64,000 nt of DNA from an uncultured Acidobacteriota bacterium (GCA_963843885.1 CAWJMJ010000016.1:193168-257167), one strand, 5' to 3'; shown: positions 5,529-32,664, counted from the first letter of the stretch. Notes: a model not told the origin generated them from the sequence alone. Translations and numbers: made by a program.

Positions 5529-7502
5529 GTGGCGCCATTCGATCGCGACGGAGCTCTGAAGCGGGCCGAGAAGGCGCTACGGCTGGGCCGCGTCGACCAG
5601 GCCATCCAGGAGTATCAGCAGCTCGTGGCGGCGCAGCCCCGCGACTGGAACAGCGCCAACGCGCTCGGCGACCTGTTCGTCCGTGCCGGGCAGCTCGACA
5701 AGGGCGTCGAGCAGTACACGCGCATCGCCGACCATCTGGCCGAAGAGGGCTTCTATCCGAAAGCCGCCGCCCTCTTCAAGAAGATCATCAAGGTCAAGCC
5801 GCTCGAAGAGTACGCGCACATCCGCGCCGGCGACGTGGCCGCGCAGCAGGGCCTGCTGGCCGATGCCAAGGCCGCCTACCAGTCCGTCGGCGAACGCCGC
5901 CGCAAGATGGGCAACATCCGCGGCGCCGCCGAGATGGCCGTGCGCCTTGGCATGGTCGACCCCGAGGACTTCGCCGCGCGCTTCGTCGCGGCCAAGGCGG
6001 CGCGCGATCTGGGCGACACCGCCGCCGCCATCCGCGAGTTCCGCGCCGTGGCCGAGTGGTTCACGACGGAGGAGCGCATCGACGAGGCGCGGTCGGCCTA
6101 TCGCGACCTGCTCGAGCTCGACCCGACCGACGATGTCGCGCGCGGCCACGTCCTCGACGCCGACATCGCCAGCGGCGATTTTTCGCGCGCCCTGGCCTGG
6201 GCCTCGTCGCCCGCGGAACTCCGCCAGCTCGCCACCGCGCTCGAAGGCGCCGGCCAGCACGCCGAAGCGCTGGCCGTGTTCGGCCGCGTCGCCGACCTGG
6301 ACCCCGGCGACGTCGACGCGCGCGTCACCCTCGTGCGCGCGCACCTGGCCAACGGCGACCTCGGCACCGCCCGCCGCTACTTCACGCCCGAGGTCGTCGC
6401 GCACGATCCCACGCTGTGGATGGCCGTGGCCGAGGCCGAGCTCGCCCAGGGCCACCTCGACGAAGGCCGCGCCGCCGTGGCCAGCGCGCTGGCGGCCGAC
6501 CGGTCGCTGCGCGAATCCGCCATCGCCATGGCGTGCCGTCTGGCCGAGGTCGACGCCGACCGCGCCTATCCGGGCATCGAGGCGGTGGCCGACGCGGCCG
6601 TGGCCGACGGCGATTTCGCGGCGGCGGCGGCCGCCCTGCACGAGTTCGTCACGCGCGTGCGGCGTCATATCGTCGCGTTGATGCGGCTGGTCGAAATCTG
6701 CGTCGACGGCGGTCTCGAGGCCACGATGTACTCGGCCCAGGCCCAGCTGGCCGACGCCTATCTCGACGCCGGCCGCGGCCTCGAAGCGCGCATCATCAGC
6801 GAAGACCTGGTGGCCCGCGAGCCCTGGGACACGGCCAATCTGGCGCGCTTCCGGCGCGCGCTCGAGATGCTGGGCGAGCCCGACCCCGACGCCGTCATCG
6901 CCGATCGGCTGAGCGGCGACAGCCCGTTCATGGCCACCGACAAGATGGACCTCAACGAGGGCTTCAGCTTCGACGACCCGGTGGACCTCCCCGAGCCGGT
7001 CCCGGCCGACGTGGTCGAGGTCGATCTGATGGAGGCGTTCCGGTCGGACGACGGCGACGCCGGCAAGGCCAAGGGGCAAGTCCGTCGGCGAGCCGGCGGC
7101 CGACCCGCCCGGCCCTCGGACGACGGTCTGGCGGCCGAGCAGCTCCGGCTCGGCTTGACCTACCGGGACATGGGCATGCTCGACGACGCCGTCGTTTCGC
7201 TTGAACTGGCGGCGCGTTCCTCGCGCCAGCGTTTCGAAGCGGCCTCGACACTCGGCCGGCTGCTGGTCGAACGCCAGAATCGCGCCGGCGCGCTGGCCTG
7301 GTTCGAGCGCGCCGCCGAAGCCCCGGCGCCCTCGGTCGATGCCGGCCGCGCCCTCCTGTATGATCTAGCCGACGTGCTCGAAGACCTCGGTGAGAACGGC
7401 CGCGCCCTGGCGGTGTTCGGCGAACTCGACGCCGATGCCGGCGGCTACCGCGACGTGCCGGCCCGGATCGCACGGCTCAGCCGCGCCCAGGTCCGGGGAT
7501 AG
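5529..7502 (+). CDS. TPR-repeat protein, 657 aa, function unknown
   Basis: Intact long ORF with coding-like codon bias. Repeated TPR-like helices, e.g. ALGDLFVRAGQLDKGVEQYTRIADHLAEEGFYPKAAALFKKIIKVKP. Confidence 0.7.
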   Translation: MAPFDRDGALKRAEKALRLGRVDQAIQEYQQLVAAQPRDWNSANALGDLFVRAGQLDKGVEQYTRIADHLAEEGFYPKAAALFKKIIKVKPLEEYAHIRAGDVAAQQGLLADAKAAYQSVGERRRKMGNIRGAAEMAVRLGMVDPEDFAARFVAAKAARDLGDTAAAIREFRAVAEWFTTEERIDEARSAYRDLLELDPTDDVARGHVLDADIASGDFSRALAWASSPAELRQLATALEGAGQHAEALAVFGRVADLDPGDVDARVTLVRAHLANGDLGTARRYFTPEVVAHDPTLWMAVAEAELAQGHLDEGRAAVASALAADRSLRESAIAMACRLAEVDADRAYPGIEAVADAAVADGDFAAAAAALHEFVTRVRRHIVALMRLVEICVDGGLEATMYSAQAQLADAYLDAGRGLEARIISEDLVAREPWDTANLARFRRALEMLGEPDPDAVIADRLSGDSPFMATDKMDLNEGFSFDDPVDLPEPVPADVVEVDLMEAFRSDDGDAGKAKGQVRRRAGGRPARPSDDGLAAEQLRLGLTYRDMGMLDDAVVSLELAARSSRQRFEAASTLGRLLVERQNRAGALAWFERAAEAPAPSVDAGRALLYDLADVLEDLGENGRALAVFGELDADAGGYRDVPARIARLSRAQVRG

Positions 7503-7740: not shown

Positions 7741-8447
7741 GTCCCGGCCCGCCGCCCGCGCGCCTGCCGCGCCCGCGCGTCGGCCTCGTGAGCGACCGGC
7801 ATCGCCTGTGCGCGGCGGCCGGCTACCCGCTGTCGGCCGCCACCGCCCTGCTCGCCGCGCAGGTCGAGGCCGCCGGGGCGTGCGGGGTCGAGTTCTTCCA
7901 GGTCCGCGAACCCGATCTCGGCGGCGCGGCGCTGCTGGCGCTGACGCGCGAGCTGCTCGCCGTGTCGCGCGGACGCGTGCGCGTGGTGGTGAACGACCGC
8001 GCCGACGTGGCCGCCCTGGCCGGGGCGGACCTGCATCTCAAGGGCGGCTCGTTGCCGCTGGCCCGGATCCGTTCCTGGCTGCCGCCGCACACGTGGGTGT
8101 CGAGGGCCGTGCACGACCCGGCCGAACTGCCCGGCGCCGCCGGCGCCGACGCGCTCATCGCCGGCACGGTGCGACGGACCGTGTCGAAACCGGGGGCGAC
8201 GCGCTGGCTCGGCGTGGACGGCCTGGCGCGGCTCGCCCGCGCCACGGCGCAACCGGTGTTTGCGATCGGCGGGGTGACCGCGGCCGACTGGCCGGCGCTG
8301 GCTGGCGCCGGTGCGGCCGGGCTCGCGGCCATCGGCTGGATGCTGCCGCGACCCGGCGAAGATGCCGGCACGGCCGTGGCTCGCGCGATGTCCGACATCG
8401 AGGCGGTGATGGCCGCGAGCGGCCCGCCTCATGGGTTAACATCGTGA
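7737..8447 (+). CDS. thiamine-phosphate synthase family protein (ThiE/TenI-like, divergent copy)
   Basis: VEFFQVREPDL, VVVNDRADVAALAGADLHLKGG, GADALIAGTVRRTVSKPG, PVFAIGGVT follow the ThiE motif order. Confidence 0.6.
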   Translation: MSPGPPPARLPRPRVGLVSDRHRLCAAAGYPLSAATALLAAQVEAAGACGVEFFQVREPDLGGAALLALTRELLAVSRGRVRVVVNDRADVAALAGADLHLKGGSLPLARIRSWLPPHTWVSRAVHDPAELPGAAGADALIAGTVRRTVSKPGATRWLGVDGLARLARATAQPVFAIGGVTAADWPALAGAGAAGLAAIGWMLPRPGEDAGTAVARAMSDIEAVMAASGPPHGLTS

Positions 8448-18409: not shown

Positions 18410-20249
18410 GCGGCTTGGCCGGGCTCGGGCGGCGGCGGCAGCGCGGCTGCAGCGTGGGCACCGGCCGGCGTGGGCGCCGCCGGGCCGCTCGGCCGGCGGA
18501 ACGGCATCGGCGCGCGGGCGGGCGCGGCGGCTCGGGGGAATCGGCAGCGTCGATGACCGTGGAGGTGCCGGTGTCGCGGCCGACGCGGAACGGCCGCAGA
18601 TCCGCCTCGGTCAGGTCGAGCACGCGCACGATGTGCGGCGTCAGCGTGAGGATGATGTCGGTCTCCTGCGTCTCGCGTGCGGTTGTGCGCGAACAGCCGG
18701 CCGAGCAGCGGCAGGTCGCTCAGCCCGGGGACGCCCGACAGCGATCGTTCCGCTCGTCGTCGCGGATCAGCCCGGCGAGCATGTTGGTCTCGCCGTCGCT
18801 CAGCCGGATGACGGTGTTGATCTCGCGGTTGCCGAACGTCGGCAGGCCGCCGAAGCCGGCGCCCGAGATGCTGCTCACCTCGATCTTCAGGGCCAGCGAC
18901 ACCTCGTCGTCGTGATGCGTGCGCGGCGTGATGTCGATGTTGACGCCGATGTTCTCGTAGTTGAACGAGGTGATCGGCTGCTGGTTGACGCCGCCGGTGG
19001 CGATCGGCGCGAAGGTGGTGACCGGCACCGGCACCCGCTCGCCGAAGCGCGCCTGCGCCGGCGATGCCTTCCGACGTGCGCAGCTGCGGGTTGGCCAGCG
19101 TGCGGGTGTTGGCGTCGTTCTTGAGCAGGCGGTAGTAGAGGCCGGGCAGGTTGGTGAGGAAGACGCCGGACGGGCGTGAGGTTGCGCAGGTCGCGCAGCG
19201 TGAGGTCGCCGCGGTTGCACGTCGGCCTGGCCGTCGATGCCGGTCGGCGATTCGGCCGGCGACGCGATCTGCAGGCCGTACTCGCGCAGGCGCGTGCGAT
19301 CGACCTCGAGCAGCTCGACGTCGATCACCACCTCGGGCCGCGCCTTGTCGATGGCCTGCGATCGATGCGGCCGGCGGCGGCCACGCGCTCGGGCGTGTCC
19401 TTGATGCGAGATCGCGTTGGTGGCGGTCATCGGCGCCATCCGCCGCGCGTCGACGACGATGCGGAGGAGGTCGATCGTCTCCTTGAGGTCGGCGTTGCTC
19501 AGGTAGAAGGTGCGGACGACCTCTTCTTCGTACTCGCGCCGCTTGGCGGGCGTGTCGGGCACGATGGTGATGGTGCGCGGCGCGGTGACGCGCCAGAAGG
19601 TGCGGGTCGCCGGCGAGACCGACGTCGAGCGCCTCCGCGAGCGCCGGCCTTGCGCAGGTCGACGCTGATCGGGGCTGTCGCGGAAGGCCGGGTCGAACAC
19701 GACGCTCAGGTTGGCGAACTTGCCGATGGCGGTGAAGACGTCGCGGGCGCTGGCGTCGCGGAAGATGAGCGAGTCGGGCAGGATGACGTCGGCGGGCACG
19801 TCGGCGCCCGGCAGCGGCGCGCGAGGCTGTCCTTGATGAGCGCCTCGAGCGTGGTCTTGCCGCCGCGGTCGAGCGCCACCTGCGTCCGCATCTGGGCGCG
19901 CACGCGTGCGGAGTTCGTCTTGGATCTGCCCGTTGGCCGGGTTGAGTTCGGCGGCGAGCTGATATTCGATCAGCGCTTCCTCGGTGCGGCCGCTGGCGTT
20001 GTGACGCCGGGCGCGCGCGAAGTGGTCCTGCGCGGCGCGCAGCTTGGCCCGGTCGAGGGCGAGACGGACGGCGCGGTCATCGGGCCGGGCCCGCGCAGCC
20101 TTGGTGTATTCGGCGACGGCCAGGTCGTAGTCTTGCTGTTGTTCGGCGGCCCGCGCCTGGTTGAGCGACGAGGTGGAGGCGCACGCCGCCGTCAGCAGCC
20201 CGAAGACGAGGGTCGCGGCGAGCGCGAGCGGGCGGCGGCTACTGCGCAT
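18319..20249 (-). CDS. secretin-family outer-membrane protein with lipobox signal peptide and N-terminal TPR region (frame broken; 3' end uncertain)
   Basis: MRSSRRPLALAATLVFGLLTAAC (lipobox), TPR-like AEYTKAARARPDD...IEYQLAAELNP, secretin N-domains (DVFTAIGKFANLSVVFDP, RTFYLSNADLKETIDLL), secretin core NIGVNIDITPRTHHDDEVSLALKIEVSS...GFGGLPTFGNREINTVIRLSDGETNMLAGLI...LPLLGRLF. Confidence 0.8.
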
Positions 20250-20917
20250 TGGTGATGACGTCCACGCCCTTTGGGACGCGGAACGCGAAGAGCGTATCGG
20301 GCGGGCGCTGATTCTCCTTCAGATTCGAGAAGACGAAGCTCGAGCGGCCGCCTTGCCGGTCGAGCGCCACCAGGTGACGGAATCTGGTAGGTGACCGGGT
20401 CCACGCCGACCGCCAGCCATTCGAAGTCCTGGTCGGGCCGCTTGGCAACGAGCTTGAGCCCGAGCAGCCCTGGGGCGGCGCCCGGGAGGTCCATGGCCGA
20501 GGCCTCGAAGTCGCGCACCAGGTTGGCCTGGCCGGTCAGGAACAGCGCCGGGGTGGTGTCGGCTCCGGTCGGGGCCGGGCTGACCATGACCTGCTTGTCG
20601 GCGGGAAAGTAAGCGTAGATCTTGACGCCGTCGGAGACGAATTCCTTCTTCTCGGGGGCCGTGTAGACCCAGCGCATGCGCCCGGGTCGCTTGATGACGA
20701 CGGTGCCACGCTCGGTCGTCTTGGTGCGCAGCACGCCGCCTTCGTAGGTCTGCGTGAAGTCGCCAGCGAAGTCGCGCACCCCGTCGTAGCGCGCCTGGAC
20801 GAGGCGGGCCAGTTCCGCCGGGGCCGGTGCCGACCCCTGCGCCGCAGCCAGGGCGGCGGCGCACAGCACCAGGCTGAGCGTCAGCAGACGGCCGGGACGG
20901 CGATGGGGGCTGGCCAC
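20239..20917 (-). CDS. lolA: LolA-family outer-membrane lipoprotein carrier protein (one frame break)
   Basis: Signal peptide, then RYDGVRDFAGDFTQTYEGG...VVIKRPGRMRWVYTAPEKKEFVSDGVKIYAYFPADKQV. Its 3' end overlaps the secretin start by 11 nt. Confidence 0.8.
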
Positions 20918-20995
20918 GCCCTCAGTATACGCAGTTGGCGGAGCAGCGGATGGGAAGGTGGTGGGCGGGTGCGGCGTCCGAGAGGTCGGGGGTGA

Positions 20996-21071
<76 letters not shown>

Positions 21072-21141
21072 AATGACCCCGGACGCGTTGTCACACGAAC
21101 CAGACAACCCGTAAATACTAGCACAGCGGCGGTCGCGGACG

Positions 21142-22128
21142 TCAGCCCAGCCACGCGTGCAGGGTGTACTCGGCACGCACGTAGTGAGCGCCGGCCGCTT
21201 CGTAAACGCGAATGACCGCGAAGTTGTAGTTCTGTGTCTGGTACTCGCCCATGCCGCCGCGGGCGTGCGACCAGAGCGTGGCGTCGCGGATGAGGCTGGC
21301 ATAGGCGCCCGGGCTGTCGCGACGGCAGGCGCCGAGTCCGCCGCCGTAAATCGGCATGCCGAGGCTCGAGGCCGGCTGGCGCCGGCGGTAGGCGAGATAC
21401 CCATTGAGGCGCCCGTCCGAATCCTCCGAGACCAGGATGATGTCGGCCATCGCGCCGCTGACGCACTGGCGCGCCCACTCCACGTAGAGTTCGTCGGCGC
21501 GGGCCGAGGACAGGTGCGGGTCGAGGTGGAAGCGGCCGCGGTAGCCCTGATAGGCCTCGCGCGTGATGTCGATGATGGCCGGGTGATCGTCCGGGCGCGA
21601 TGCGCGGATGACGCCGACCGTCCGGACGTCGCGCGGCGGATCCTTGACCGGCCGCATGATGTAGGTGACGAGCGCGTCCATCGTGCGGAAGCCGTGCTCC
21701 TCGAGGACGCCGAGGGTGTCGAGGTCGGCCACGTCGACGCGCGCGGTCAGGTGCTTCACCCCGGCGGCCTGTGCCGCCGCGCAGGCGGCGCCGATGACGG
21801 CGACGCGATCGTCGAGCGAAGCGGCCGGGGTCGCGACGACGTAGTCGATGCGGGCCATGGGCAGGCCGAAGAAGGCGCTGTCCCAGTCAAGTGGGCGGGC
21901 CACGACGGCCGCCCGCGGGCGCTCGTCGCCCACCACGCGGCTGAACTCGCCGGGCACGGCCAGGGCGCTGGTCACCTCGGCCTGCAAAATGGCGAGCTGC
22001 TCCTTGCGCGAGTAGGTCCGGTACTGGCGGTACGGCTTGAAGGCATGACCTTCGAGCAGCGCCGTCAGGTCGTCAGGGCGCAGAGCAGCAAGCGGCAGCG
22101 GTTCGGACATCGGCAACAGGGGCCGCAC
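21142..22128 (-). CDS. WecD-like GNAT N-acetyltransferase (TDP-4-amino-4,6-dideoxy-sugar acetyltransferase family) with ~90-aa N-terminal extension
   Basis: Intact 328-aa ORF. RPLDWDSAFFGLPMARI, LEEHGFRTMDALVTY, GRFHLDPHLSSARADELYVEWARQCV and QTQNYNFAVIRVYEAAGAHYVRAEYTLHAW parallel, from my memory of it, the E. coli WecD sequence in the same order. Confidence 0.65.
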   Translation of the reverse strand: MRPLLPMSEPLPLAALRPDDLTALLEGHAFKPYRQYRTYSRKEQLAILQAEVTSALAVPGEFSRVVGDERPRAAVVARPLDWDSAFFGLPMARIDYVVATPAASLDDRVAVIGAACAAAQAAGVKHLTARVDVADLDTLGVLEEHGFRTMDALVTYIMRPVKDPPRDVRTVGVIRASRPDDHPAIIDITREAYQGYRGRFHLDPHLSSARADELYVEWARQCVSGAMADIILVSEDSDGRLNGYLAYRRRQPASSLGMPIYGGGLGACRRDSPGAYASLIRDATLWSHARGGMGEYQTQNYNFAVIRVYEAAGAHYVRAEYTLHAWLG

Positions 22129-22177: not shown

Positions 22178-24112
22178 TCACGGCACCTTGACGAAGACCT
22201 CGTTCGAGGGCCGGCTCAGCCCGCACGCGTTCTGGGCCAGCACGCGCACGTAGTAGTCGCCGTTGGGCGCGTTGCCGGCCAGGGCCGTGGCGGTGGTGCC
22301 GGTGGCGGAGACGACCAGGTTGCTGAGGCCAGGCGCGCTGCCGACCGCGAACGTGTAGCCGGTTGGCGGTGTGCCGGCCGGGGCGGTCCACGTGAAGGTC
22401 AGGAACGAGCCGTTCTTGGTGAAGGCAAGGTTGGTGGGCGGCTGCGGCACGGCGGTGCACGCCGCTACGGTGAGCACGATCTCGTTCGAGGGCGCGCTGA
22501 AGCCGCACACGTTGCTGGACTGCACGCGCACGTAGTAAGTGCCGTAGGCGACGTTGCCGCTGAGGCTGGTGACGCTGGCCGGATAGTCCTGGACGCCCAG
22601 GTTGGCGAGGCCAGGGCCGGTCCCCGCCAGCAGGCGATAGCCCTGGACCATGCCGGTCGAGGGCGCCGTCCATTGCAAGTTGACCAGCGTGTCGTTCGAC
22701 GATCCGGAGAGCGTGCCGGGCGGGCCCGGCGGCGTGCAGGCCCCCACGGTGACGGCCCGTTCGACCGAGGACAGGCTCGTGCCCAACGCGTTCTGGGCGC
22801 GGACCCGCAAGTAGTAGGTGCCGGCCGGCACATTGGGGATCGCGGTCGAGGTCACCGAGGCTGGATAGGTGGCCGAGCCCAGGTTGTAGACGCCGGGGGT
22901 GTTCCCCGCATCGAGGATATAGCGTTGGGCCACGCCGCCCGTCGATGCCGGCGTCCACGACAGCGTGATGGTCGAGAGGACCGCGGCGACGGTGAAGTTG
23001 GTGGGCGGGTCGGGCATCTTCGTTTCGGCGGCGATGCCCCGGTATATGGTGGTGATGCCGTTGACGTCGTCGGCGTCCAAGCCGCTCGGCGCCGTCGTGC
23101 AGCTGCCCTTGGGATTCGGCGCCATCATCGCCGTCGGGACGTTCGAGTGGCCGAGGCCGAGCGCGTGGCCGAGCCCGTGGGCCACCGCGTCCTCGAAGCA
23201 GCCGGGCGCGGTTGATTGCACGCCGGAGTCGTTGAGCACGACGAAGCCCTGGATGAACTTCTGGAACTCCGTGCCGTTGACGATGCGCCGGTCGCCGGTC
23301 GTGTAATAGCCGCCGCCGACCACCCAATCGTTGACGCCGCCGCACGGGTCGTTGAACGAAACCGCGATGCGGCCGTTGCCGGTGAAGTCGGCCGAGCAGC
23401 CCCCGGTATAGGCGCCGCCCACCTGCAGGTCGAGGTCCATGCCGGAGTTCCGCCACAGGTTGACGGCGGCGGTGAATCGCTGGGGCGTGGCATGCGTCCA
23501 GGTCGCGGGCACTGTCCCGGCGTCGACCACGACCGCGGTGCGCTGATCCACCTCGTGCCAGCGCGCCGGATAGCTGTCCGTGCTCAGGAACGCGAAGCGC
23601 GGGCCAGGCTGTCGCGTGAAGGCCGCGTACTCCGGCGGCACCGCGTCGTAGTGCTGCAAAAGTGCTCGGGGCCGGGCCGCCAGCTCGCGCTCGACGGCCG
23701 CCGCGAGGCCGGCGTCGTAGGCCCACTTGCCGCGGCCGAGGCCAACGGTGTGCAGGGTCCGCTCGGCGCCGCTGGTGGTGAGGGCCACCAGTACGTCCTC
23801 ACCGACGCGGAAGGCGGCCTGCTCGGGCAGCCACAAGCCGATGCCGCCGGCCTCGCCGCCACGCTGCTTGAGCACGAGCCGCGGCGGCACATCCTGGCCC
23901 AGGAGCACCCGCGCCACGTCGAGCGCAACGTAGGTGTGAATGGTGCGGCCCTGGTCGTCCCAGCGCGCTTCCAGGCTCGCCACGCGGCCGCTCACGACCA
24001 GCGTGCCGGCAGGCGCCTCGGGCAGCAGCGCGGCCGGCTGCGCCAGCGCCGGGGCAACGGAAAGGACGGCGAGGAGCGGCAATACGAGCGTGGCAACAGT
24101 CGGAGGGGTCAT
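22178..24112 (-). CDS. secreted matrixin-like (M10 metzincin fold) protein with Glu-to-Gly in the zinc motif, followed by three Fn3-like modules
   Basis: Intact 644-aa ORF with signal peptide LPLLAVLSVAPALAQP. Residues 312-322 read HGLGHALGLGH, against the metzincin motif HExxHxxGxxH, followed by S and the Met-turn AMM. The C-terminal ~280 aa are three ~90-aa modules, e.g. PPTNLAFTKNGSFLTFTWTAPAG...GDYYVRVLAQNACGLSRPSNEV. Confidence 0.7.
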   Translation of the reverse strand: MTPPTVATLVLPLLAVLSVAPALAQPAALLPEAPAGTLVVSGRVASLEARWDDQGRTIHTYVALDVARVLLGQDVPPRLVLKQRGGEAGGIGLWLPEQAAFRVGEDVLVALTTSGAERTLHTVGLGRGKWAYDAGLAAAVERELAARPRALLQHYDAVPPEYAAFTRQPGPRFAFLSTDSYPARWHEVDQRTAVVVDAGTVPATWTHATPQRFTAAVNLWRNSGMDLDLQVGGAYTGGCSADFTGNGRIAVSFNDPCGGVNDWVVGGGYYTTGDRRIVNGTEFQKFIQGFVVLNDSGVQSTAPGCFEDAVAHGLGHALGLGHSNVPTAMMAPNPKGSCTTAPSGLDADDVNGITTIYRGIAAETKMPDPPTNFTVAAVLSTITLSWTPASTGGVAQRYILDAGNTPGVYNLGSATYPASVTSTAIPNVPAGTYYLRVRAQNALGTSLSSVERAVTVGACTPPGPPGTLSGSSNDTLVNLQWTAPSTGMVQGYRLLAGTGPGLANLGVQDYPASVTSLSGNVAYGTYYVRVQSSNVCGFSAPSNEIVLTVAACTAVPQPPTNLAFTKNGSFLTFTWTAPAGTPPTGYTFAVGSAPGLSNLVVSATGTTATALAGNAPNGDYYVRVLAQNACGLSRPSNEVFVKVP

Positions 24113-24139: not shown

Positions 24140-25795
24140 CTACGGGTTATGGGGCGGGCGCGCGATGGCCGTTCCCGGCGTGGCGTGGGCCAGGGGTGCG
24201 GCCGGCGGCGCTGCGGGACAGCCGAGGTCGAACAGCCGATAGCGATCGTGCGCGTAGGACAGCTCGATGCTACGCCGCCGCGCCAGGTCAACGGCCATCT
24301 GCGGTTGCGTGGCCTCGAGCGCCGGCCAGTCGGCCACGGCCACGAAGCACACCCCGCGCCGGTCGTGCAGGTAGTCGACCACGGCCGGCGAGATCGATGT
24401 CGCGTCGAAGCTCCAGCCCTTGCGATGCGCGAAATAGAGCAGCATCGGCGAGTTGCTGCCGTAGCGCTCGTACTCCACGGTGGCGATGAGCGCGTCTGGC
24501 GGCGTCACCTGGTCGATGGCCCATCCGGCGTCGACCACGGCCTGGTTCAGGTTGTCCGGCCGGTAGAGATACGAGATGGCGCCGCTGTCGCCGAAGCCCA
24601 TGACGGCGGTGGCCACCAGGGCGGCGCTGGTCGCGGCCGCCACCGCGTGCCGCCAGGTTCCGAAGCGCGTGTAGAAGGGCCACGAGAAGAGCGGCGCCGC
24701 GGCCATCCCGAAGTAGAGCGCCAAGGGCGGCAGCGTGGGCAGTTGGTGGAACTCGTGCGGCAGCTGGCCGGCAAGCGACACGGCCACGAGCGACAGCGCG
24801 GCCAGCATCCACACGTCCACGACCGAACGCGCCCGGCCGGACCAGCGCCAGCTGGCGAGACCGGCCAGGGTGAGCAGCGTGAACACGGGCGTGAGGTGCA
24901 GCGCCCAGTAGCGCCGGGCCAGTTCGCTGGCCGTGTCCCAAGTGAGCAGGTCGCGACGCGTCCAGTGCGACACGGTCGTGAACGGCCCGGCAAACTGCGC
25001 GATGTCGCCGGGATAGGTGCCGGAGGGACGGAGGATGGCCTGCGTGAGCCCCGTTTCCAGAAAAATCTGGTCGGCGTGCAGGTACCAGAGCGCAATGGCA
25101 CCCACGGCAGCCAGCGGCGCGGCCACGAACCACGGGTCGGCCAGGGTCCGGCGCAGGCCCCTGCTGGCCAGGCCGGTCCACACCACCGGTCCGAGGACCA
25201 GGATGGCCGGCAGCTTGACCAGGCCGGCCAGCGCCAGGGCCACCGCGCCGAAGAACGCGTGTCGCCACTGGCCCGTCTGCGTGTAGGCCACGTAGCCAAG
25301 CACCGCCGCCACCGAAAAGGCCAGCATGGGCGTGTCGGAGAGCGGCGTGCGGCCGAAATACACCACGCTCGGCGACACGGCCATGAGGAAGGCGGCCGCC
25401 CGTCCGGCCGGCTGGCTGAAGAGGCGAGTGCCCAGCCGGTAGGTCCACCACACCGTGGCCAGCGAGAAGCCCACGGGCACGAGCCGCCCGGCCACGTCGC
25501 TGATGCCGGCCATACGCCACGCCAGCGCCATGAGCAGGTGCAGCAGAGGGAACTCGAGCCCGACGCGGCCATCGGGGCCACCCCAGCTCACGGAGGGATA
25601 GAAGAAATCGATCGGCCCTTCGGTCCACAACCGCGCGATGTCGGCGTTGGTGACCTGGCGCCAGCTATGGGCGTCGATGAACGGAACGTCGATGCGGTAG
25701 AGACGGAAAGCCAGGGCCAGCGCGAGGATGGCCAGCGCGCACCAGTCCACGCGCTGCCCGGCGCGGGAGGACACGGCGGAATCGGGTGACGTCAC
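24140..25795 (-). CDS. GT-C fold membrane glycosyltransferase (PMT_2 / ArnT-like, GT39/GT83-type)
   Basis: Intact 551-aa ORF with many hydrophobic segments. The N-terminus ALAFRLYRIDVPFIDAHSWRQV...LVPVGFSLATVWWTYRLGTRLF...AAFLMAVSPSVVYFGR is typical of the ArnT/PMT family. Confidence 0.7.
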   Translation of the reverse strand: MTSPDSAVSSRAGQRVDWCALAILALALAFRLYRIDVPFIDAHSWRQVTNADIARLWTEGPIDFFYPSVSWGGPDGRVGLEFPLLHLLMALAWRMAGISDVAGRLVPVGFSLATVWWTYRLGTRLFSQPAGRAAAFLMAVSPSVVYFGRTPLSDTPMLAFSVAAVLGYVAYTQTGQWRHAFFGAVALALAGLVKLPAILVLGPVVWTGLASRGLRRTLADPWFVAAPLAAVGAIALWYLHADQIFLETGLTQAILRPSGTYPGDIAQFAGPFTTVSHWTRRDLLTWDTASELARRYWALHLTPVFTLLTLAGLASWRWSGRARSVVDVWMLAALSLVAVSLAGQLPHEFHQLPTLPPLALYFGMAAAPLFSWPFYTRFGTWRHAVAAATSAALVATAVMGFGDSGAISYLYRPDNLNQAVVDAGWAIDQVTPPDALIATVEYERYGSNSPMLLYFAHRKGWSFDATSISPAVVDYLHDRRGVCFVAVADWPALEATQPQMAVDLARRRSIELSYAHDRYRLFDLGCPAAPPAAPLAHATPGTAIARPPHNP

Positions 25796-25862: not shown

Positions 25863-27189
25863 CTAGGGGACGAACCCGGCCTGGAGGAATGGCTGCAGCG
25901 TCCAGCGCGCCCCGAAGCTCACCGCCGGCGGGTTGGGGCTCGTGATCTCGGTGGCCTGGCCGGTGGGATTCGGACCGCAGTGGCCCCCGATGACATCCCA
26001 GGCGCGGACCTTGAACGTGCCCTCGTCGCCCTCATCGCCCCAGTTGTAGGTGATGACGTCCTGCGACATGTCGCCGACGTTGGCGCGCTTCCAGTTCAGG
26101 CCCCAGCGCTTGTCGCGCTCGCGCAGCTTCGACACGAGACGGAACAGCCAGCGGTTGTTGCCGCCGAACTCGTGGCAGGAGTTGCGCAGGTCGGCGGGAT
26201 AGGCCGCCGCGATCTCGCGCACGACGCCAAGGACGTAGCGACGGCGCCGGCAGCGCCGTCCCGGGCGCGGGATCGGCGGCGCGAGGCTGCATCTTGAGCG
26301 AGTTCTGGTCGACCACGATGTTGGCCGAGGCCGCCGGCCCCTGCGCGCCGCACGCGAACACCGCGGCGACGTCGAGGCGCCACACGCCCTCGGGCAGCGT
26401 GTTGCTGAAGCGGGTGACGGCCGCGCCCACCGGAACCGACCCGATGGCGGCGCCGCCCTGATAGCCGGTCAGCACATATCCGGCCGCGCCGGGAACCGGG
26501 GTCCACGACACGCTGACGAAGCCGCCGAAGACGCTCGTCGACAGCGCCGGCGCGGGGGGCGTGTCACACGCGCCGCCGGCCGGCATGTTCAGCGTGAACT
26601 CCGGCGAGTCGGGGCTTTCGCCGCCGGCGTTGACCGCCACGACGCGGAAGTAGAACGTGCCGGCGGGCATGGGGCCGTAGGCAAAGATGTTCGTGCCCAG
26701 GTTGAGCACGGCATCGCTGCCGCCGGGGTTGACCCCGGCCTTGAGCCGGTAGCCGAGCGGCGCGCCGCCGCCCGCCCCGGGACTCCAGGTGGCCACGATG
26801 CTCGTGCCGTTGCGCGCCACGACCAGGTTCGTGGGCGCCGCCGGAGGCGTCGCCAGGGTGGTGACCGTGCCCGACACTTCGTTGGAATACTGCAGGCCGC
26901 CAGCGGTGACGGCGATGACCCGCGCGTAGAACGTGCCGACCGCCGGAGCCACCACGGCACTGGTCGTGACATTGCCGACGCTGAGAGAACCCAGGTATGC
27001 GCCCGGGACGACCCCGGCTTGGAGCACGTAATCGGTCGCGCCCGCCGTGGCGCTCCATGTGAACGTCACGTTTGCGCCCGACACCGCGGGGGCGTTCATG
27101 ACCGGCGCCTGCCGCGCTTCAGCCATCCCCGCCATGACGACCGACACCGCGATGGCGGCAAGAGCTACTGACCGTGAGACTACGTGCAT
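25863..27189 (-). CDS. secreted protein: signal peptide + three Fn3-like modules + conserved C-terminal domain of unknown function (paralog 1; one frame break near 26.24 kb)
   Basis: Start MHVVSRSVALAAIAVSVVMAGMAEA with SD AAGGAGAG upstream. The modules lie in ORF 26032..27333 and the C-terminal domain in ORF 25863..26222. The 1327-nt span (3n+1) agrees with a one-base indel. Confidence 0.75.
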
Positions 27190-27334
27190 CCTGACTCTCC
27201 TTGTTCGACTTCCGCAGGCCGGCGAGTGGCACCGGGCACGGACTGTTGCTCGACCATGCTTCCAGGGGAAGAATGGCCCGGGGGAGTCTAACACGGCTGG
27301 CAGGACCGCGCAGTTCCGCTCCACACACGACAAA

Positions 27335-27366
27335 GCCCGTCGCCTCTCGGGGGAGAGACGACGGGC
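27335..27366 (-). terminator. hairpin downstream of Fn3 paralog 2
   Basis: The minus strand reads GCCCGTCGTCTCTC-CCCC-GAGAGGCGACGGGC followed by TTTGTCGTGTG (imperfect stem, short U-tract). Confidence 0.45.
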
Positions 27367-27390
27367 CGGTCGTCGGGCGAGGCCGAACGG

Positions 27391-28716
27391 CTAGGGTACC
27401 GCCGGGAAGCCGGCTTGCAGGTAGGGCTGCAAGGTCCACTTCGCGCCGGTGGACCACAGCACGGTCTGGTTGATCCACGCGGGCGTGGGGTTGCTGCCGC
27501 AGTGGCCGCCGATGACGTCGACCGCATGCACGTAGAGCGTGCCCTCGTCGTTCTCGGGGCCGTAGTTGTAGGTGATGATGTCCTGCGACAGGTCGCCGGT
27601 GCGGGCGCGCTTCCAGTTGAGGCCCCAGCGCGTGTCCTCGCGCCGCAGGCGCTCGACCAGGCGGAACAGCCAGATGTTGTTGCCGCCGTGTTCCACGCAC
27701 GAGTTCCGCAGTTCATTGGGATAGCGGCGCGCGATCTCTTCGACGACGGCGGCGCGGTTGGGGAGCGGCAAATAGTTGGGCGGCGTCGGCGCCGGTGGAT
27801 TCGGCGTCCGGTTGCCCGACCCGCCCGAGCCGGTCACGACGATGGTCGCGTCGGCCGAGGTCGCGATGGCCCCGCAGGCATTGGCCACGGTGACGCGGGC
27901 GTAGTAGGTGCCGGTCGGGACACCGGGGTAGGACGCGGCGGTCTGCGACGGCGCGAAGGTCTGGCTGTGGGCCGCGGCGCCGCCTGGCGAGGTCGAGAAG
28001 TCGAGGCGGTAACCAATCGCTCCGGGCACCGGCGACCAGCCGACGCCAACCGTCGAGCCGCTGACCTGAACCTGCACGGCCGGCGCCGAGGGGGTGACAC
28101 ACGCCGCCGGCGAGACGACCAGTTGCACCTCGTTCGACGCGCCGCTGGTCCCGCCGGCGCTGACGGCGTGCATGCGGGCGTAGTAGGTTCCAGGGGGCAC
28201 GTTCTCGAGTGAGGACTGCGGGGCGATTGGCATCGGCAGGACACCCTGCGTCTGGCCGGGCGCGCCACCGGCGGCGAGGAGGATGCCGCTGAGCGGTCCG
28301 GGCGGCAAGGTCATGCTGAAGGTGATGGTGGTGCCCGACACCGTCGCGGAGAGACCGGTCGGAGGCTGGGGCGGCCCTTGCACCGAGGTTACCGTCACCT
28401 CCACGACGTTCGACGAGGCGCTCTGGCCCTGCGCGTTACGGGCCAGCACCCGCAGGTAGAACCTCCCTTGGGGCGCCTGGACGGAGAACGATGTCAGTCC
28501 TCCCAGTTCGTAGCCGGCCAGCATCAGGCCGGGCGTGGTCCCGGCCTCGGCCCGGTAGCTGGTGGCACCGGGCACGGCGGTCCAGGCGGCCGACACCGTC
28601 TGGCCGTTGGCCTGGGCTTGGAGGACCGGGGCGGCCAGTTGGGCGGCCGCCAGCGAAGGAAGAGCCAGGGCGACGAGAGCGGCGATGCAAGCGCGGGCAC
28701 ACGAGTTCATGAACAC
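27391..28716 (-). CDS. secreted protein: signal peptide + three Fn3-like modules + conserved C-terminal domain of unknown function (paralog 2, intact)
   Basis: Intact 441-aa ORF with signal peptide CIAALVALALPSLAAAQ. Three ~90-aa modules (W..VPGA.SY...G..PG....RFYLRV.A.N..G.S..SN). C-terminal domain LRNSCVEHGGNNIWLFRLV...RWGLNWKR...DVIGGHCG...WTLQPYLQAGF. Confidence 0.8.
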   Translation of the reverse strand: MFMNSCARACIAALVALALPSLAAAQLAAPVLQAQANGQTVSAAWTAVPGATSYRAEAGTTPGLMLAGYELGGLTSFSVQAPQGRFYLRVLARNAQGQSASSNVVEVTVTSVQGPPQPPTGLSATVSGTTITFSMTLPPGPLSGILLAAGGAPGQTQGVLPMPIAPQSSLENVPPGTYYARMHAVSAGGTSGASNEVQLVVSPAACVTPSAPAVQVQVSGSTVGVGWSPVPGAIGYRLDFSTSPGGAAAHSQTFAPSQTAASYPGVPTGTYYARVTVANACGAIATSADATIVVTGSGGSGNRTPNPPAPTPPNYLPLPNRAAVVEEIARRYPNELRNSCVEHGGNNIWLFRLVERLRREDTRWGLNWKRARTGDLSQDIITYNYGPENDEGTLYVHAVDVIGGHCGSNPTPAWINQTVLWSTGAKWTLQPYLQAGFPAVP

Positions 28717-28756: not shown

Positions 28757-28920
28757 GACCAAGGCTCCAGTAAACTCGCACGTTAACGTCTCGGCGGGCG
28801 CGGGCCCAGACGCGAATGACACTATTGGTGACGGCTGGCTGACGGTACGGGGACGCTTGCCTGACGACTCCCCGTTGGGTCGCGACGCCACGTGAGTGCA
28901 GGCCGCAACCCGCCCGCCGA

Positions 28921-28926
28921 TATACT
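28921..28926 (+). promoter_or_regulatory. candidate -10 box (TATACT) 10 nt upstream of the pfkA ATG
   Basis: TATACT-GAGTAACTCA-ATG with no Shine-Dalgarno sequence. Confidence 0.35.
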
Positions 28927-28936
28927 GAGTAACTCA

Positions 28937-30017
28937 ATGTCTCCAGAACATCGCAAGATTGGCGTGCTTACCGGCGGCGGCGACGCTCCCGGCCTCAATG
29001 CGGTCATCCGCGCCGTGGTCAAGGCCGGGTGCAACGCCGGCATGGAGGTCATCGGCCTCGAAGACAGCTTCGACGGCCTGCTCGACCCGAGCCGCTCCCG
29101 CCCGCTCACGCCGCACGACGTCACCGGCATCCTGCGGCTGGGCGGCACCATCCTGGGCACGACCAACAGCGGCAACCCCTTCGAGTACCCCACCGAAGCG
29201 GGGAAGGCCGACTACTCCGACCGGGTGGTGCAGACCTTCGGTGAAGATGGGACTGGACGCCCTGGTGGTGATTGGCGGCGACGGCACGCTCGCCATCGCC
29301 CACCAGTTCTACCTCAAGGGCATCCCCGTCGTGGGCGTGCCCAAGACCATCGACAACGACATCGTCGGCACGACCAGCTGCTTCGGCTTCGATACCGCGG
29401 TGTCCTTTGCCGCCGACGCCATCGACCGGCTGCACACCACCGCCGAGGCGCACAAGCGCATCATGGTCGTCGAGGTGATGGGCCGCTATGCCGGCTGGAT
29501 TGCGCTGCACGCCGGCATCGCCGGCGGCGCCGACGTCATCCTGATCCCCGAATGCCCTACGACGTCGAGAAGGTCGCCGAGCACATCCGCAAGCGCGATG
29601 AATGGGGCGCGCGCTTCAGCATCGTCGTGGTGGCCGAGGGCGCCAAGCCGGTGGGCGGGAAACTGACGCTGCGGTCGGAGGCGCGCCCGGGCGTGGTCGA
29701 GCGGCTGGGCGGCGTGGGCGGCCACCTGGCCGAGGCGCTGCAGAAGCTGACGGGGAAGGAAAGCCGCAGCGTGCGTGCTCGGGCACCTGCAGCGTGGCGG
29801 CTCGCCGACGCCGTTCGACCGCGTGCTGGCCACGCGCTTCGGCGCCAAGGCCGTGGAGCTGGTGCGCCGCGGCGTGTTCGGCCGGATGGTCGCGAACAAC
29901 CCGCCGGACATCGTCCACATCCCGCTCTCGGATGTCGTCGGGCGGTGCAAGACCGTGCCGCTCGATTACGACCTGCTCGCGACGGCCCGGGCGCTGGGCG
30001 TCTCGTTCGGCGACTGA
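28937..30017 (+). CDS. pfkA: 6-phosphofructokinase (ATP- or PPi-dependent), three frame breaks
   Basis: [81 protein letters not shown]. Confidence 0.88.

Positions 30018-31281: not shown

Positions 31282-32664
<1,383 letters not shown>

What the first reader, a model, noticed from the sequence alone, without database searches (positions are those of the whole stretch)
25863..28716. Tandem paralogs with a conserved, unassignable ~120-aa C-terminal domain
The two adjacent genes encode ~441-aa proteins with identical architecture. The C-terminal domains align by eye without large gaps. Paralog 2 reads YPNELRNSCVEHGGNNIWLFRLVERLRREDTRWGLNWKRARTGDLSQDIITYNYGPENDEGTLYVHAVDVIGGHCG...WTLQPYLQAGF. Paralog 1 reads YPADLRNSCHEFGGNNRWLFRLVSKLRERDKRWGLNWKRANVGDMSQDVITYNWGDEGDEGTFKVRAWDVIGGHCG...WTLQPFLQAGF. 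Invariant residues include two Cys, a His (GGHCG), several Asp and Trp, and RWGLNWKR. That pattern could be a Cys/His hydrolase-type centre, or a disulfide plus a binding site. I cannot match it to any family from memory. The domain is joined to the Fn3 array by a Pro/Thr-rich linker (TPNPPAPTPPNYLPLP).
Basis: seen in the sequence. Interest (0 to 1): 0.75.

Follow-up and report, generated by a model that had tools for sequence, protein, structure and literature searches.

The report
New cell-wall-associated domain on Fn3 stalks
Two neighbouring genes of a soil acidobacterium encode exported proteins ending in a small, strongly conserved domain that no family or structure database recognises; phage relatives sit beside cell-wall-degrading genes or on tail proteins, so it probably cuts or grips the bacterial cell wall.

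Summary
Paralog 2 (27391-28716, minus strand) is an intact 441-aa gene: signal peptide, three Fn3-like modules, Pro/Thr linker, then a ~120-aa C-terminal domain. Paralog 1 has the same layout but is broken by a +1 frameshift at about 26238. This is probably an assembly error, because housekeeping genes in the window are frameshifted too.

The C-terminal domain is truly unassigned. It has no Pfam, NCBIfam, PHROG or PDB sequence match, and a confident AlphaFold model (pLDDT 90.6) has no Foldseek neighbour in the PDB. It is not a lineage oddity. A profile search finds 706 cluster representatives, mainly in Vicinamibacterales and Myxococcota, plus about 11 phage or prophage loci.

The Cys/His-centre idea fails. 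The two Cys are lost together (382 both, 9 neither) and the His is replaced in phage homologues, so the pair is a disulfide. The universal core is R363, N367, K369, R370, S377, D379 and D400.

In 7 of 11 phage loci the gene lies within 1 kb of an endolysin, and those endolysins come from at least four unrelated families. Elsewhere the domain ends tail proteins.

Best reading: a new peptidoglycan-directed head domain, probably hydrolytic, possibly only binding. Function is inferred, not shown.

The parts
27391..28716 (-). Paralog 2: intact 441-aa gene (signal peptide, 3 Fn3-like modules, linker, C-terminal domain)
   Evidence: ORF list and translation. Orthologous upstream-copy clade in Vicinamibacterales.
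28642..28716 (-). Predicted Sec signal peptide of paralog 2 (aa 1-25, ...LPSLAAA|QL)
   Evidence: Read from the sequence. Hydrophobic core plus an AxA site. Judged by eye; no predictor was run.
27829..28641 (-). Three Fn3-like modules of paralog 2 (aa 26-111, 112-203, 204-296)
   Evidence: Pfam fn3 E 1.3e-5, 25.7 bits, on aa 118-198. The nine modules of the three genes align.
27757..27831 (-). Gly/Ser then Pro/Thr-rich linker (GSGGSGNRTPNPPAPTPPNYLPLPN, aa 296-320)
   Evidence: Sequence. The 'PRxPxPxPGxxLPLP' lead-in is conserved across family members.
27394..27756 (-). C-terminal domain of paralog 2 (aa 321-441). Disulfide pair C340/C406. Core residues R363, N367, K369, R370, S377, D379, D400.
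   Evidence: HMM score 212 bits. AlphaFold model pLDDT 90.6, pTM 0.88. Conservation.
25863..27189 (-). Paralog 1: same architecture, about 441 aa once a 1-nt insertion is removed. ATG at 27189; signal peptide MHVVSRSVALAAIAVSVVMAGMAEA.
26232..26244 (-). Frameshift site in the linker of paralog 1: one extra base in CCGTCGCTACGTC relative to the intact orthologue
26302..27114 (-). Three Fn3-like modules of paralog 1
   Evidence: Pfam fn3 E 7.3e-6, 26.6 bits. Module alignment.
25866..26237 (-). C-terminal domain of paralog 1 (YVLGVVREIAAAYP...QAGFVP)
   Evidence: HMM score 197 bits. 65% identity to paralog 2. Downstream-copy clade.
24140..25795 (-). Context: PMT_2 / GT-C-type membrane glycosyltransferase immediately downstream
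   Evidence: Pfam PMT_2 E 1.6e-12. A relative is present in 23 related loci.
22178..24112 (-). Context: secreted M10 (matrixin-type) metalloprotease followed by three Fn3 modules of the same type
   Evidence: Pfam Peptidase_M10 E 6.8e-10, fn3 E 7e-19. Module alignment.

Best explanation
The ~120-aa C-terminal domain founds an unannotated protein family. It is a small alpha+beta module: three N-terminal helices, a five-stranded antiparallel sheet and a short C-terminal helix. One disulfide staples it (C340-C406 in paralog 2). It works outside the cytoplasm as the only functional 'head' of its proteins. Here it is held on three Fn3-like spacers behind a Sec signal peptide.

I propose that it acts on peptidoglycan. 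By my inference from strand periodicity, the conserved polar residues lie on one face of the beta1-beta2 hairpin and beta3: R363, N367, K369, R370, S377, D379 and D400. That face would engage a muropeptide or glycan strand. Most probably it also cleaves it.

My tentative guess is a stem-peptide or amide bond, for two reasons. The endolysins next to it in phage lysis cassettes are all glycan-strand cutters. And K369/S377 close a hairpin in the way a Ser-Lys pair would.

**What is shown:**
- the family exists and its core residues are conserved;
- the disulfide covariation;
- the extracytoplasmic architecture;
- the phage lysis-cassette and tail associations.

**What is inferred:**
- the ligand is peptidoglycan;
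- the domain is catalytic;
- the bond type.
For: **1. Family and fold.**
- 706 representatives at E<=1e-3 and 149 at <=1e-30. 130 stretches in GTDB species genomes.
- The domain is C-terminal in 159 of 180 proteins.
- The model is confident and has no PDB neighbour. The only fold matches are two uncharacterised Caudovirales proteins (E 5e-5, TM 0.65).

**2. It is the only non-spacer domain.** In 127 full-length members the partners are fn3, Ig-like, TIG, PKD, CarboxypepD_reg and DUF5719, never a known enzyme. The adjacent gene puts an M10 protease head on the same Fn3 stalk.

**3. Export.** Signal peptides in the window's proteins; lipoprotein signals in Myxococcota and in a 183-aa class; paired-Cys covariation.

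**4. Phage context.** In 7 of 11 independent viral or prophage loci a peptidoglycan hydrolase gene lies within 1 kb:
- L079, GH108/phrog_315, between the endolysin and a holin-like gene, upstream of terminase;
- L089, phrog_315, overlapping stop/start;
- L090, phrog_7;
- L087;
- L100, in the same ORF as a Mano/AH2-type endolysin;
- L085, NlpC/P60-like;
- L086, SleB-like.

A rough binomial with 9% chance per locus gives p about 1e-5. The partner endolysins belong to at least four unrelated families, so the linkage survives endolysin replacement.

**5. Tail proteins.** The domain also ends a 695-aa tail protein after a Gly/Pro/Thr linker (L083/84, phrog_1887) and a tail-fibre-like protein (L082). 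That is the layout of tail-associated lysins.

**6. A shared ligand.** The same core motif, R-[WF]-G-x-N-x-K-R-G...S-x-D...D-[VI]-[IV], is kept from Acidobacteriota and Myxococcota to phages of 53-70% GC. This argues for a ligand common to diderm bacteria rather than a strain-specific surface glycan.

**7. Two-copy proteins.** One copy is canonical and the other has lost N367, K369, R370 and S377 equivalents. That pattern is typical of an active domain paired with a degenerate one.
Against: - No biochemical evidence and no recognisable catalytic signature.
- No similarity to any known peptidoglycan hydrolase or binding domain.
- In every phage lysis cassette a canonical endolysin is also present. 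The domain might therefore be an accessory (binding, regulation, outer-membrane step) rather than a second lysin.
- Tandem copies, lipoprotein-plus-linker layouts, and signal-anchor plus coiled-coil layouts (L085, L100, P0248) fit a binding or tethering module equally well.
- Bacterial neighbourhoods give no cell-wall signal. The window locus sits in a housekeeping syntenic block. A second acidobacterial locus and L080 sit among GT4, NDP-sugar and methyltransferase genes. Myxococcota loci share no neighbour.
- No member was found in 50,697 cultured-phage records.
- L086, L089 and L090 are related phages, so the seven loci are not fully independent.
Confidence: 0.35

Rival explanations
1. Non-catalytic peptidoglycan-binding or anchoring module. 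The conserved Arg/Lys/Asp/Asn/Ser face binds a muropeptide, as OmpA-like or SPOR domains do. It tethers lipoproteins, stalked proteins, spanin-like lysis proteins and phage tail tips to the wall.
For: - Lipoprotein + disordered linker + domain(s) in Myxococcota and the 183-aa class.
- Signal-anchor + domain + coiled coil in L085, L100 and P0248, at the position that the i-spanin occupies after the same endolysin type in phages Mano and AH2.
- Tandem copies.
- A canonical endolysin is always present alongside.
- No catalytic signature. The two-domain model shows beads on a string (pTM 0.44).
Against: - It is never fused to any catalytic domain in 127 architectures, unlike LysM, SH3, PG_binding or SPOR.
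- In the window's proteins nothing else could be the working end.
- In two-copy proteins one copy has lost the core residues, which argues against avidity.
- The 190-200-aa phage proteins (domain plus a ~70-aa tail) look like complete small lysins.
Confidence: 0.28
2. Module that recognises or processes another envelope glycan (exopolysaccharide, LPS or capsule). It would serve as a lectin-like tip on bacterial stalks and as a receptor-binding tip on phage tail fibres.
For: - The second acidobacterial locus (10 loci) lies between a GT4 glycosyltransferase, an outer-membrane beta-barrel, a methyltransferase and a sugar nucleotidyltransferase.
- L080 lies among GT4, epimerase and LPG_synthase_TM genes.
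- The window has a PMT_2 glycosyltransferase next door.
- It sits at the C-terminal position of tail-fibre-like and tail proteins.
- A tail assembly chaperone follows the gene in L089.
Against: - Receptor-binding tips diversify, but this core is nearly invariant across phyla and phages.
- L079 and L086 are lysis cassettes proper, away from tail genes.
- The bacterial neighbourhoods may only reflect vertical synteny.
Confidence: 0.14
3. Periplasmic inhibitor or regulator of peptidoglycan hydrolases (like Ivy, MliC/PliC or immunity proteins). It would protect the producer, or time phage lysis.
For: - Periplasmic or lipoprotein location.
- A disulfide-flanked His loop, GGHCG, recalls the CKPHDC loop of Ivy. 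This is a resemblance from memory, not a test.
- It is adjacent to endolysins of several families.
Against: - One inhibitor fold is unlikely to fit at least four unrelated endolysin families.
- The His/Cys loop is absent in exactly the phage proteins that sit next to endolysins.
- Fusion to tail proteins is unexplained.
- No effector partner is conserved in bacteria.
Confidence: 0.06
4. One reading: a Cys/His (papain- or NlpC/P60-like) hydrolase centre formed by the SC and GGHCG motifs.
For: Both Cys are about 97-99% conserved and the His about 92% among bacterial members.
Against: - The two Cys are gained and lost together (382 both, 9 neither).
- The His is replaced by Ala in the Cys-less phage homologues, and by Glu, Ala, Val, Ile or Ser in some bacterial ones, while R/N/K/R/S/D/D stay.
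- The proteins are exported, where paired Cys oxidise.
- No Pfam or Foldseek link to any Cys-peptidase clan.
Confidence: 0.03
5. C-terminal toxin of a polymorphic-toxin or bacteriocin system.
For: A variable N-terminal delivery or stalk region with a conserved small C-terminal domain. Producers are soil competitors or predators.
Against: - No conserved small downstream (immunity) gene. Downstream of paralog 2 is paralog 1, then a glycosyltransferase.
- No conserved neighbour in Myxococcota.
- The domain is conserved rather than polymorphic. The locus is vertically inherited in a housekeeping block.
Confidence: 0.04

Closest known systems
Tail-associated lysins / virion-associated peptidoglycan hydrolases (e.g. 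lactococcal phage Tal with a C-terminal M23 domain, T4 gp5 lysozyme); from general knowledge
   Same: A small domain at the C-terminus of a tail protein behind a flexible Gly/Pro-rich linker (L083/84, L082). The same domain type is also used in lysis modules.
   Different: No sequence or fold similarity to M23, lysozyme, CHAP, NlpC/P60 or SLT. Activity is unproven.
Small modular endolysins of phages of Gram-negative hosts, including SAR endolysins
   Same: 190-200-aa phage proteins made of this domain plus a ~70-aa second domain sit beside holin or endolysin genes. L085 and L100 carry an Ala/Gly/Val-rich N-terminal signal-anchor.
   Different: They always accompany a canonical endolysin rather than replacing it. 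Some carry a C-terminal coiled coil, which endolysins do not.
Peptidoglycan-binding modules on tethers (OmpA-like domain of Pal, SPOR domains)
   Same: Lipoprotein signal + disordered linker + small alpha/beta domain. By inference, conserved Arg/Asp-type residues lie on an exposed sheet face.
   Different: No detectable homology or fold match. Never fused to amidases or other enzymes, as SPOR and LysM often are.
i-spanins (Rz-type; N-terminal membrane anchor plus periplasmic coiled coil; Kongari et al. 2018, PMC6139136)
   Same: In L100 the gene follows the same endolysin type that is followed by the i-spanin in phages Mano and AH2. It has an N-terminal hydrophobic segment and a helical C-terminal part.
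   Different: Spanins have no globular domain of this kind. L086 has a separate membrane-anchored, coiled-coil candidate next to its endolysin.
Secreted bacterial hydrolases with Fn3 spacers (e.g. the neighbouring M10-Fn3x3 protease; chitinases and cellulases with Fn3 linkers)
   Same: Signal peptide, repeated Fn3 modules and one terminal head domain. The same Fn3 module type is used by three adjacent genes.
   Different: The head is an unknown domain, and there is no separate carbohydrate-binding module.

Membership tests
Fibronectin type III (Pfam PF00041), stalk only | Match to the fn3 profile above the gathering score | tested here: met
   25.7 bits (cut-off 25) in paralog 2 and 26.6 bits in paralog 1, one module each. 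The other modules are assigned by alignment to these and to the M10 gene's modules (fn3 E 7e-19).
Any Pfam-A / NCBIfam family, for the C-terminal domain | Profile match at or near the curated threshold | tested here: not met
   No hit for either paralog. 63 diverse members scanned at E<=10 give only 13 families, each hit by a single member, best E 0.012.
Papain-like / NlpC-P60 / CHAP Cys-His hydrolases | Invariant nucleophilic Cys and catalytic His | tested here: not met
   The Cys pair covaries as a disulfide (382 both, 9 neither). The His is replaced in phage and some bacterial members.
Papain-like / NlpC-P60 / CHAP Cys-His hydrolases | Fold similarity to solved members | tested here: not met
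   Foldseek against the PDB: best E 1.1, TM<=0.25. No Cys peptidase among the hits other than noise.
Known peptidoglycan hydrolase or binding domains (GH19/22/23/24/25/73/108, Amidase_2/3, M15, M23, YkuD, SleB, LysM, SH3b, PG_binding_1-3, SPOR, OmpA-like) | Sequence or structural similarity | tested here: not met
   None appears. The functional link rests on phage gene context only.
Peptidoglycan hydrolase, as a functional class | Demonstrated cleavage of peptidoglycan | not testable with these tools
   Needs zymogram and muropeptide analysis.
Barnase-like microbial RNases (considered because the helix-helix-helix-5-strand order is alike) | Fold match to barnase / RNase Sa / T1 | tested here: not met
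   No such hit in the PDB Foldseek search.
C-type lectin-like / Link module (considered because of a 'WGL' strand and weak Link-module hits) | Significant fold match | tested here: not met
   TSG-6 Link module hits at E 3.7-7.6, TM 0.15-0.21.
Polymorphic toxin C-terminal domains | Cognate immunity gene immediately downstream; toxin domain varies between strains | tested here: not met
   Downstream genes are the paralogue and a glycosyltransferase. No conserved neighbour in Myxococcota. The domain is conserved and vertically inherited.
Two-component spanin, i-spanin subunit (phage relatives only) | N-terminal transmembrane anchor, periplasmic coiled coil, partner o-spanin lipoprotein gene | tested here: inconclusive
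   Position and N-terminal hydrophobic segment fit in L100 and L085. No o-spanin partner was identified. Most phage members lack an anchor.

The most novel reading that the evidence does not exclude
The domain is the catalytic core of a previously unrecognised class of peptidoglycan-cleaving enzyme with a fold absent from the PDB. Soil Acidobacteriota and Myxococcota would use it as secreted or lipoprotein lysins. Phages would use it as a second lysin in lysis cassettes and as a tail-tip wall-piercing enzyme, possibly with a Ser-Lys or Asp-Asp mechanism unlike known lysins.
Probability: 0.3. Interest if true: 0.75.

Novelty: new variant of a known kind. Interest (0 to 1): 0.5.

Why it matters
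If the domain binds or cuts peptidoglycan, it adds a new fold to the small set of known wall-active modules.

- It would give function to several hundred 'hypothetical' protein clusters in abundant soil phyla.
- It would explain an unannotated gene that recurs in phage lysis cassettes.
- It could supply new enzybiotic or cell-wall-probe parts.

Even without a proven function, the family is well enough defined here to be registered as a new domain family. It has boundaries, a disulfide, seven near-invariant residues and a confident model. That also makes it a good target for a structure and a simple sacculus assay.

There is a technical lesson too. The window comes from an error-prone long-read assembly, so apparent pseudogenes in it should not be taken at face value.

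Tried and rejected
**Sequence family searches with no result.**
- Pfam, NCBIfam and PHROGs on the domain, including per-member scans. Only phrog_12792 (unknown function) was hit weakly, by 5 of 63 members, best E 0.016.
- PDB sequence and profile searches: nothing.

**Structure searches.**
- Foldseek against the PDB with the single-domain model and with a two-domain model: nothing.

**Heterodimer / pseudo-dimer idea.** It was prompted by two observations. Vicinamibacterales carry two adjacent genes, while Myxococcota fuse two copies in one protein. The AlphaFold model of a two-copy protein gave well-folded domains but pTM 0.44 and a disordered linker. So there is no support for a fixed pair, though the alignment was shallow, with 9 sequences.

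**Operon-partner search.**
- No conserved neighbour in Myxococcota.
- The window-type locus is a vertically inherited housekeeping block.

**Cultured-phage homologues.** tblastn of the domain and of a phage member against 50,697 records found nothing.

**Other failed or uninformative searches.**
- A wide alignment was too diverse for the viral DNA-pattern scan. A narrower one worked. A second scan added only one locus.
- I read the ORF downstream of the L100 gene by eye as a permuted papain-like amidase. This could not be confirmed and is not used.
- The word-indexed protein search returned only proteins of 250 aa or less, all 'hypothetical'. It therefore understated the family compared with the exhaustive profile search.

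**Ideas rejected by Foldseek or for lack of motif order:** barnase-like, C-type-lectin-like, SGNH, ADP-ribosyltransferase, PTP-loop and PD-(D/E)xK.
Full report
**1. What is in the window**

On the minus strand, 27391-28716 is an intact ORF of 441 aa (paralog 2). The downstream gene (paralog 1) is split. An ORF ending at 26032 carries the N-terminal part, with its real start probably the ATG at 27189 (MHVVSRSVALAAI...). A 119-aa ORF at 25863-26222 in another frame carries the C-terminal domain.

The break lies in the linker. Compared with the intact orthologue of the closest relative (L004, 85.5% nucleotide identity over both genes), the window has one extra base within CCGTCGCTACGTC at 26244-26232.

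Several housekeeping genes in the same window also change frame relative to intact orthologues from Illumina-assembled relatives:
- phosphofructokinase, 28892-30017, at least three switches;
- a 250-aa gene at 31937-32636, four switches;
- a gene at 20242-21458, three switches.

The nearest relatives are Microflora Danica Nanopore MAGs (PMC12313526). I therefore read the frameshift as most likely an indel error.

After correction both proteins are about 441 aa: signal peptide, three Fn3-like modules, a Gly/Ser then Pro/Thr linker, and a ~120-aa C-terminal domain. The two C-terminal domains are 65% identical (E 3e-53). The window holds no third copy.

The nine Fn3-like modules of these two genes and of the M10 metalloprotease gene at 22178-24112 align to one pattern. 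A PMT_2-type membrane glycosyltransferase (24140-25795) lies between them.

**2. The domain is unassigned but not an orphan**

No database recognises the C-terminal domain:
- Pfam and NCBIfam give no hit.
- Scanning 63 diverse members one by one at E<=10 gives only scattered single-member noise.
- PHROGs give only a weak, unannotated family.
- PDB sequence and profile searches are empty.

An AlphaFold model built on 34 homologues is confident (pLDDT 90.6, pTM 0.88). It shows three N-terminal helices, five antiparallel strands and a short C-terminal helix. Foldseek finds nothing in the PDB (best E 1.1, TM<=0.25). Its only significant matches are two uncharacterised proteins of uncultured Caudovirales in BFVD (E 5e-5, TM 0.65, and E 0.02).

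The family is sizeable:
- An exhaustive profile search of 1.84 billion cluster representatives gives 706 hits at E<=1e-3 and 149 at <=1e-30.
- A scan of one genome per GTDB species gives 130 stretches, in Vicinamibacterales (Acidobacteriota) and Myxococcota (Polyangiales, Sandaracinaceae, Myxococcaceae).
- No source gives any member a name other than 'hypothetical protein'.

**3. Anatomy of the family**

The domain is C-terminal in 159 of 180 proteins, and 11 proteins carry two copies.

In 127 full-length members the only partner domains are beta-sandwich spacers: fn3, Ig-like, TIG, PKD, CarboxypepD_reg and DUF5719. There is never a known catalytic or wall-binding domain.

Arrangement differs by lineage:
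- In Vicinamibacterales the tandem gene pair is the rule. Both genes are intact in Illumina MAGs. Upstream and downstream copies form separate clades, so the duplication is old. Both copies keep all key residues.
- In Myxococcota the proteins are lipoproteins with a long disordered linker and two copies in one chain. The N-terminal copy has lost the equivalents of N367, K369 (changed to Arg), R370 and partly S377.
- A 183-aa lipoprotein class has a single copy.

An AlphaFold model of a two-copy protein folds each copy well but gives pTM 0.44 with a disordered linker. There is therefore no evidence for a fixed pseudo-dimer.

**4. Which residues matter**

Across 395 domain instances:
- both Cys are present in 382, both absent in 9, and one absent in 4 (misaligned or frameshifted); Fisher p about 4e-15;
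- the Cys-less set includes five phage proteins without signal peptides, in which SC becomes AH and GHC becomes GAG or AAG;
- the His is about 92% conserved and is replaced by Glu, Ala, Val, Ile or Ser in some bacterial members.

So C340-C406 is a structural disulfide and the His is dispensable. The Cys/His-centre idea is rejected.

What is universal, including in phages, is listed below in paralog 2 numbering:

| Residue | Conserved in |
|---|---|
| R363 | 391 of 395 |
| N367 | 373 |
| K369 | 374 |
| R370 | 373 |
| S377 | 383 |
| D379 | 393 |
| D400 | 393 |

By the alternation of residues along strands beta1, beta2 and beta3 of the model, these should lie on one face of the sheet. K369 and S377 would close the beta1-beta2 hairpin.

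**5. Context that bears on function**

Bacterial neighbourhoods are not informative:
- The window-type locus is embedded in a conserved housekeeping block: phosphofructokinase, threonine synthase-like, ribosome recycling factor and others.
- Myxococcota loci share no neighbour.
- A second acidobacterial locus lies among GT4, outer-membrane beta-barrel, methyltransferase and sugar nucleotidyltransferase genes, as does L080.

Phage contexts are informative. Eleven independent viral or prophage loci carry the domain. In seven, a peptidoglycan hydrolase gene lies within 1 kb:

| Locus | Neighbouring hydrolase | Distance / position |
|---|---|---|
| L079 | GH108/phrog_315 endolysin | 53 nt upstream; a holin-like gene and terminase follow |
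| L089 | phrog_315 endolysin | overlapping |
| L090 | phrog_7 endolysin | 211 nt |
| L087 | homologue of the L089 endolysin | about 960 nt |
| L100 | Mano/AH2-type endolysin, 45-56% identity | the first 165 aa of the same ORF |
| L085 | NlpC/P60-like 'cell wall-associated hydrolase / tail lysozyme' | about 760 nt |
| L086 | SleB-like endolysin | 466 nt; a membrane-anchored, coiled-coil ORF lies between |

For L100, the gene that follows this endolysin type in the cultured phages Mano and AH2 is the i-spanin.

With a generous 9% chance per locus, seven of eleven gives p about 1e-5. L086, L089 and L090 are related phages, but their endolysins belong to different families, which itself argues for functional linkage.

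In the remaining loci:
- the domain ends a 695-aa tail protein (phrog_1887) behind a Gly/Pro/Thr linker (L083/84);
- it ends a tail-fibre-like protein (L082);
- it lies near internal-virion or tail genes;
- it lies in a prophage 3.7 kb from a lysozyme gene.

**6. Interpretation**

A small exported domain that is the sole non-spacer part of its proteins, that phages place both in lysis cassettes and at tail ends, and whose core is invariant from two bacterial phyla to phages of varied GC content, most economically targets a shared envelope polymer. That polymer would be peptidoglycan.

I lean to a catalytic role (0.35) for four reasons:
- it is never an appendage of another enzyme;
- in the window it occupies the place that a protease head occupies in the neighbouring gene;
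- the tail-protein layout mirrors tail-associated lysins;
- two-copy proteins keep one canonical and one degenerate copy.

A tentative refinement follows from the partners. The lysis-cassette endolysins are all glycan-strand cutters (GH108, lysozyme-type, SleB-like), so a peptide- or amide-bond activity would be complementary.

The main rival (0.28) is a non-catalytic wall-binding or tethering module. It fits the lipoprotein, spanin-like and tandem layouts, and the constant presence of a canonical endolysin.

Lesser rivals are a lectin-like module for other envelope glycans (0.14), a hydrolase inhibitor (0.06), a toxin (0.04) and the Cys/His hydrolase (0.03).

**7. Novelty and verdict**

The family is absent from Pfam (2025 copy), NCBIfam 20, PHROGs v4 and the PDB (2026 copies). 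It is a new domain family, possibly a new fold, within a familiar kind of protein: exported, modular and envelope-directed.

'Unassignable' is upheld, and the Cys/His guess is not. The function remains an inference from phage gene context, so I give it moderate interest.

Noticed in passing
window 28892-30017 (+), also 31937-32636 and 20242-21458 (-): Phosphofructokinase and other housekeeping genes switch reading frame several times relative to intact orthologues from Illumina MAGs. The window appears to come from an error-prone long-read (Nanopore-type) assembly, so apparent pseudogenes here are suspect.
   Followed up: partly
window 22178-24112 (-): A secreted M10 (matrixin-type) metalloprotease carries three C-terminal Fn3 modules of the same type as the two paralogues. 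Three adjacent genes share one stalk module.
   Followed up: partly
window 24140-25795 (-): A PMT_2 / GT-C-type membrane glycosyltransferase lies between the protease gene and the paralogues, and a relative is found in 23 related loci. It could O-glycosylate the Pro/Thr-rich linkers, as Pmt enzymes do in actinobacteria. This is untested.
   Followed up: no
L049, L051-L054, L056, L057, L059, L061-L063, L066, L068, L070, L075, L078 (match near 8001 in most): In Myxococcota the two domain copies are fused in one lipoprotein. The N-terminal copy is degenerate at the core residues. In Vicinamibacterales the two copies are separate adjacent genes and both are canonical.
   Followed up: yes
L100 1151-2419 (+): One ORF without an internal stop joins a Mano/AH2-type endolysin (first 165 aa) to a signal-anchor + domain + Gly-rich linker + helical tail. 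It is either a true fusion or two genes with a missed stop.
   Followed up: partly
L086 5445-5753 (+): A 102-aa ORF with an N-terminal transmembrane segment and a coiled-coil tail lies between the SleB-like endolysin and the domain gene. It looks like an i-spanin candidate. A further ORF with hydrophobic segments follows at 6386-6838.
   Followed up: no
L069 4845-14996 and nine syntenic loci (L055, L058, L064, L065, L071, L072, L074, L076, L077): A second acidobacterial locus carries one to three further genes with the domain. It is flanked by GT4 glycosyltransferase, an outer-membrane beta-barrel protein, a methyltransferase and a sugar nucleotidyltransferase.
   Followed up: partly
P0119 (470 aa; representative-library protein): It has two nearly identical domain copies that lack both Cys and the His, followed by a Cys-rich C-terminal extension. 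This is an unusual member of unknown origin.
   Followed up: no
The word-indexed protein search returned only proteins of 250 aa or less. Many were C-terminal fragments called from frameshifted long-read contigs. Gene calls for this family in public metagenomes are often truncated.
   Followed up: partly
L006, L021, L028, L042, L044, L045, L073 (record titles): Several contigs that are syntenic with Vicinamibacterales loci are titled 'uncultured Bifidobacteriaceae' or 'Enterobacterales' in TPA 'binchicken' assemblies. The organism names look wrong.
   Followed up: no
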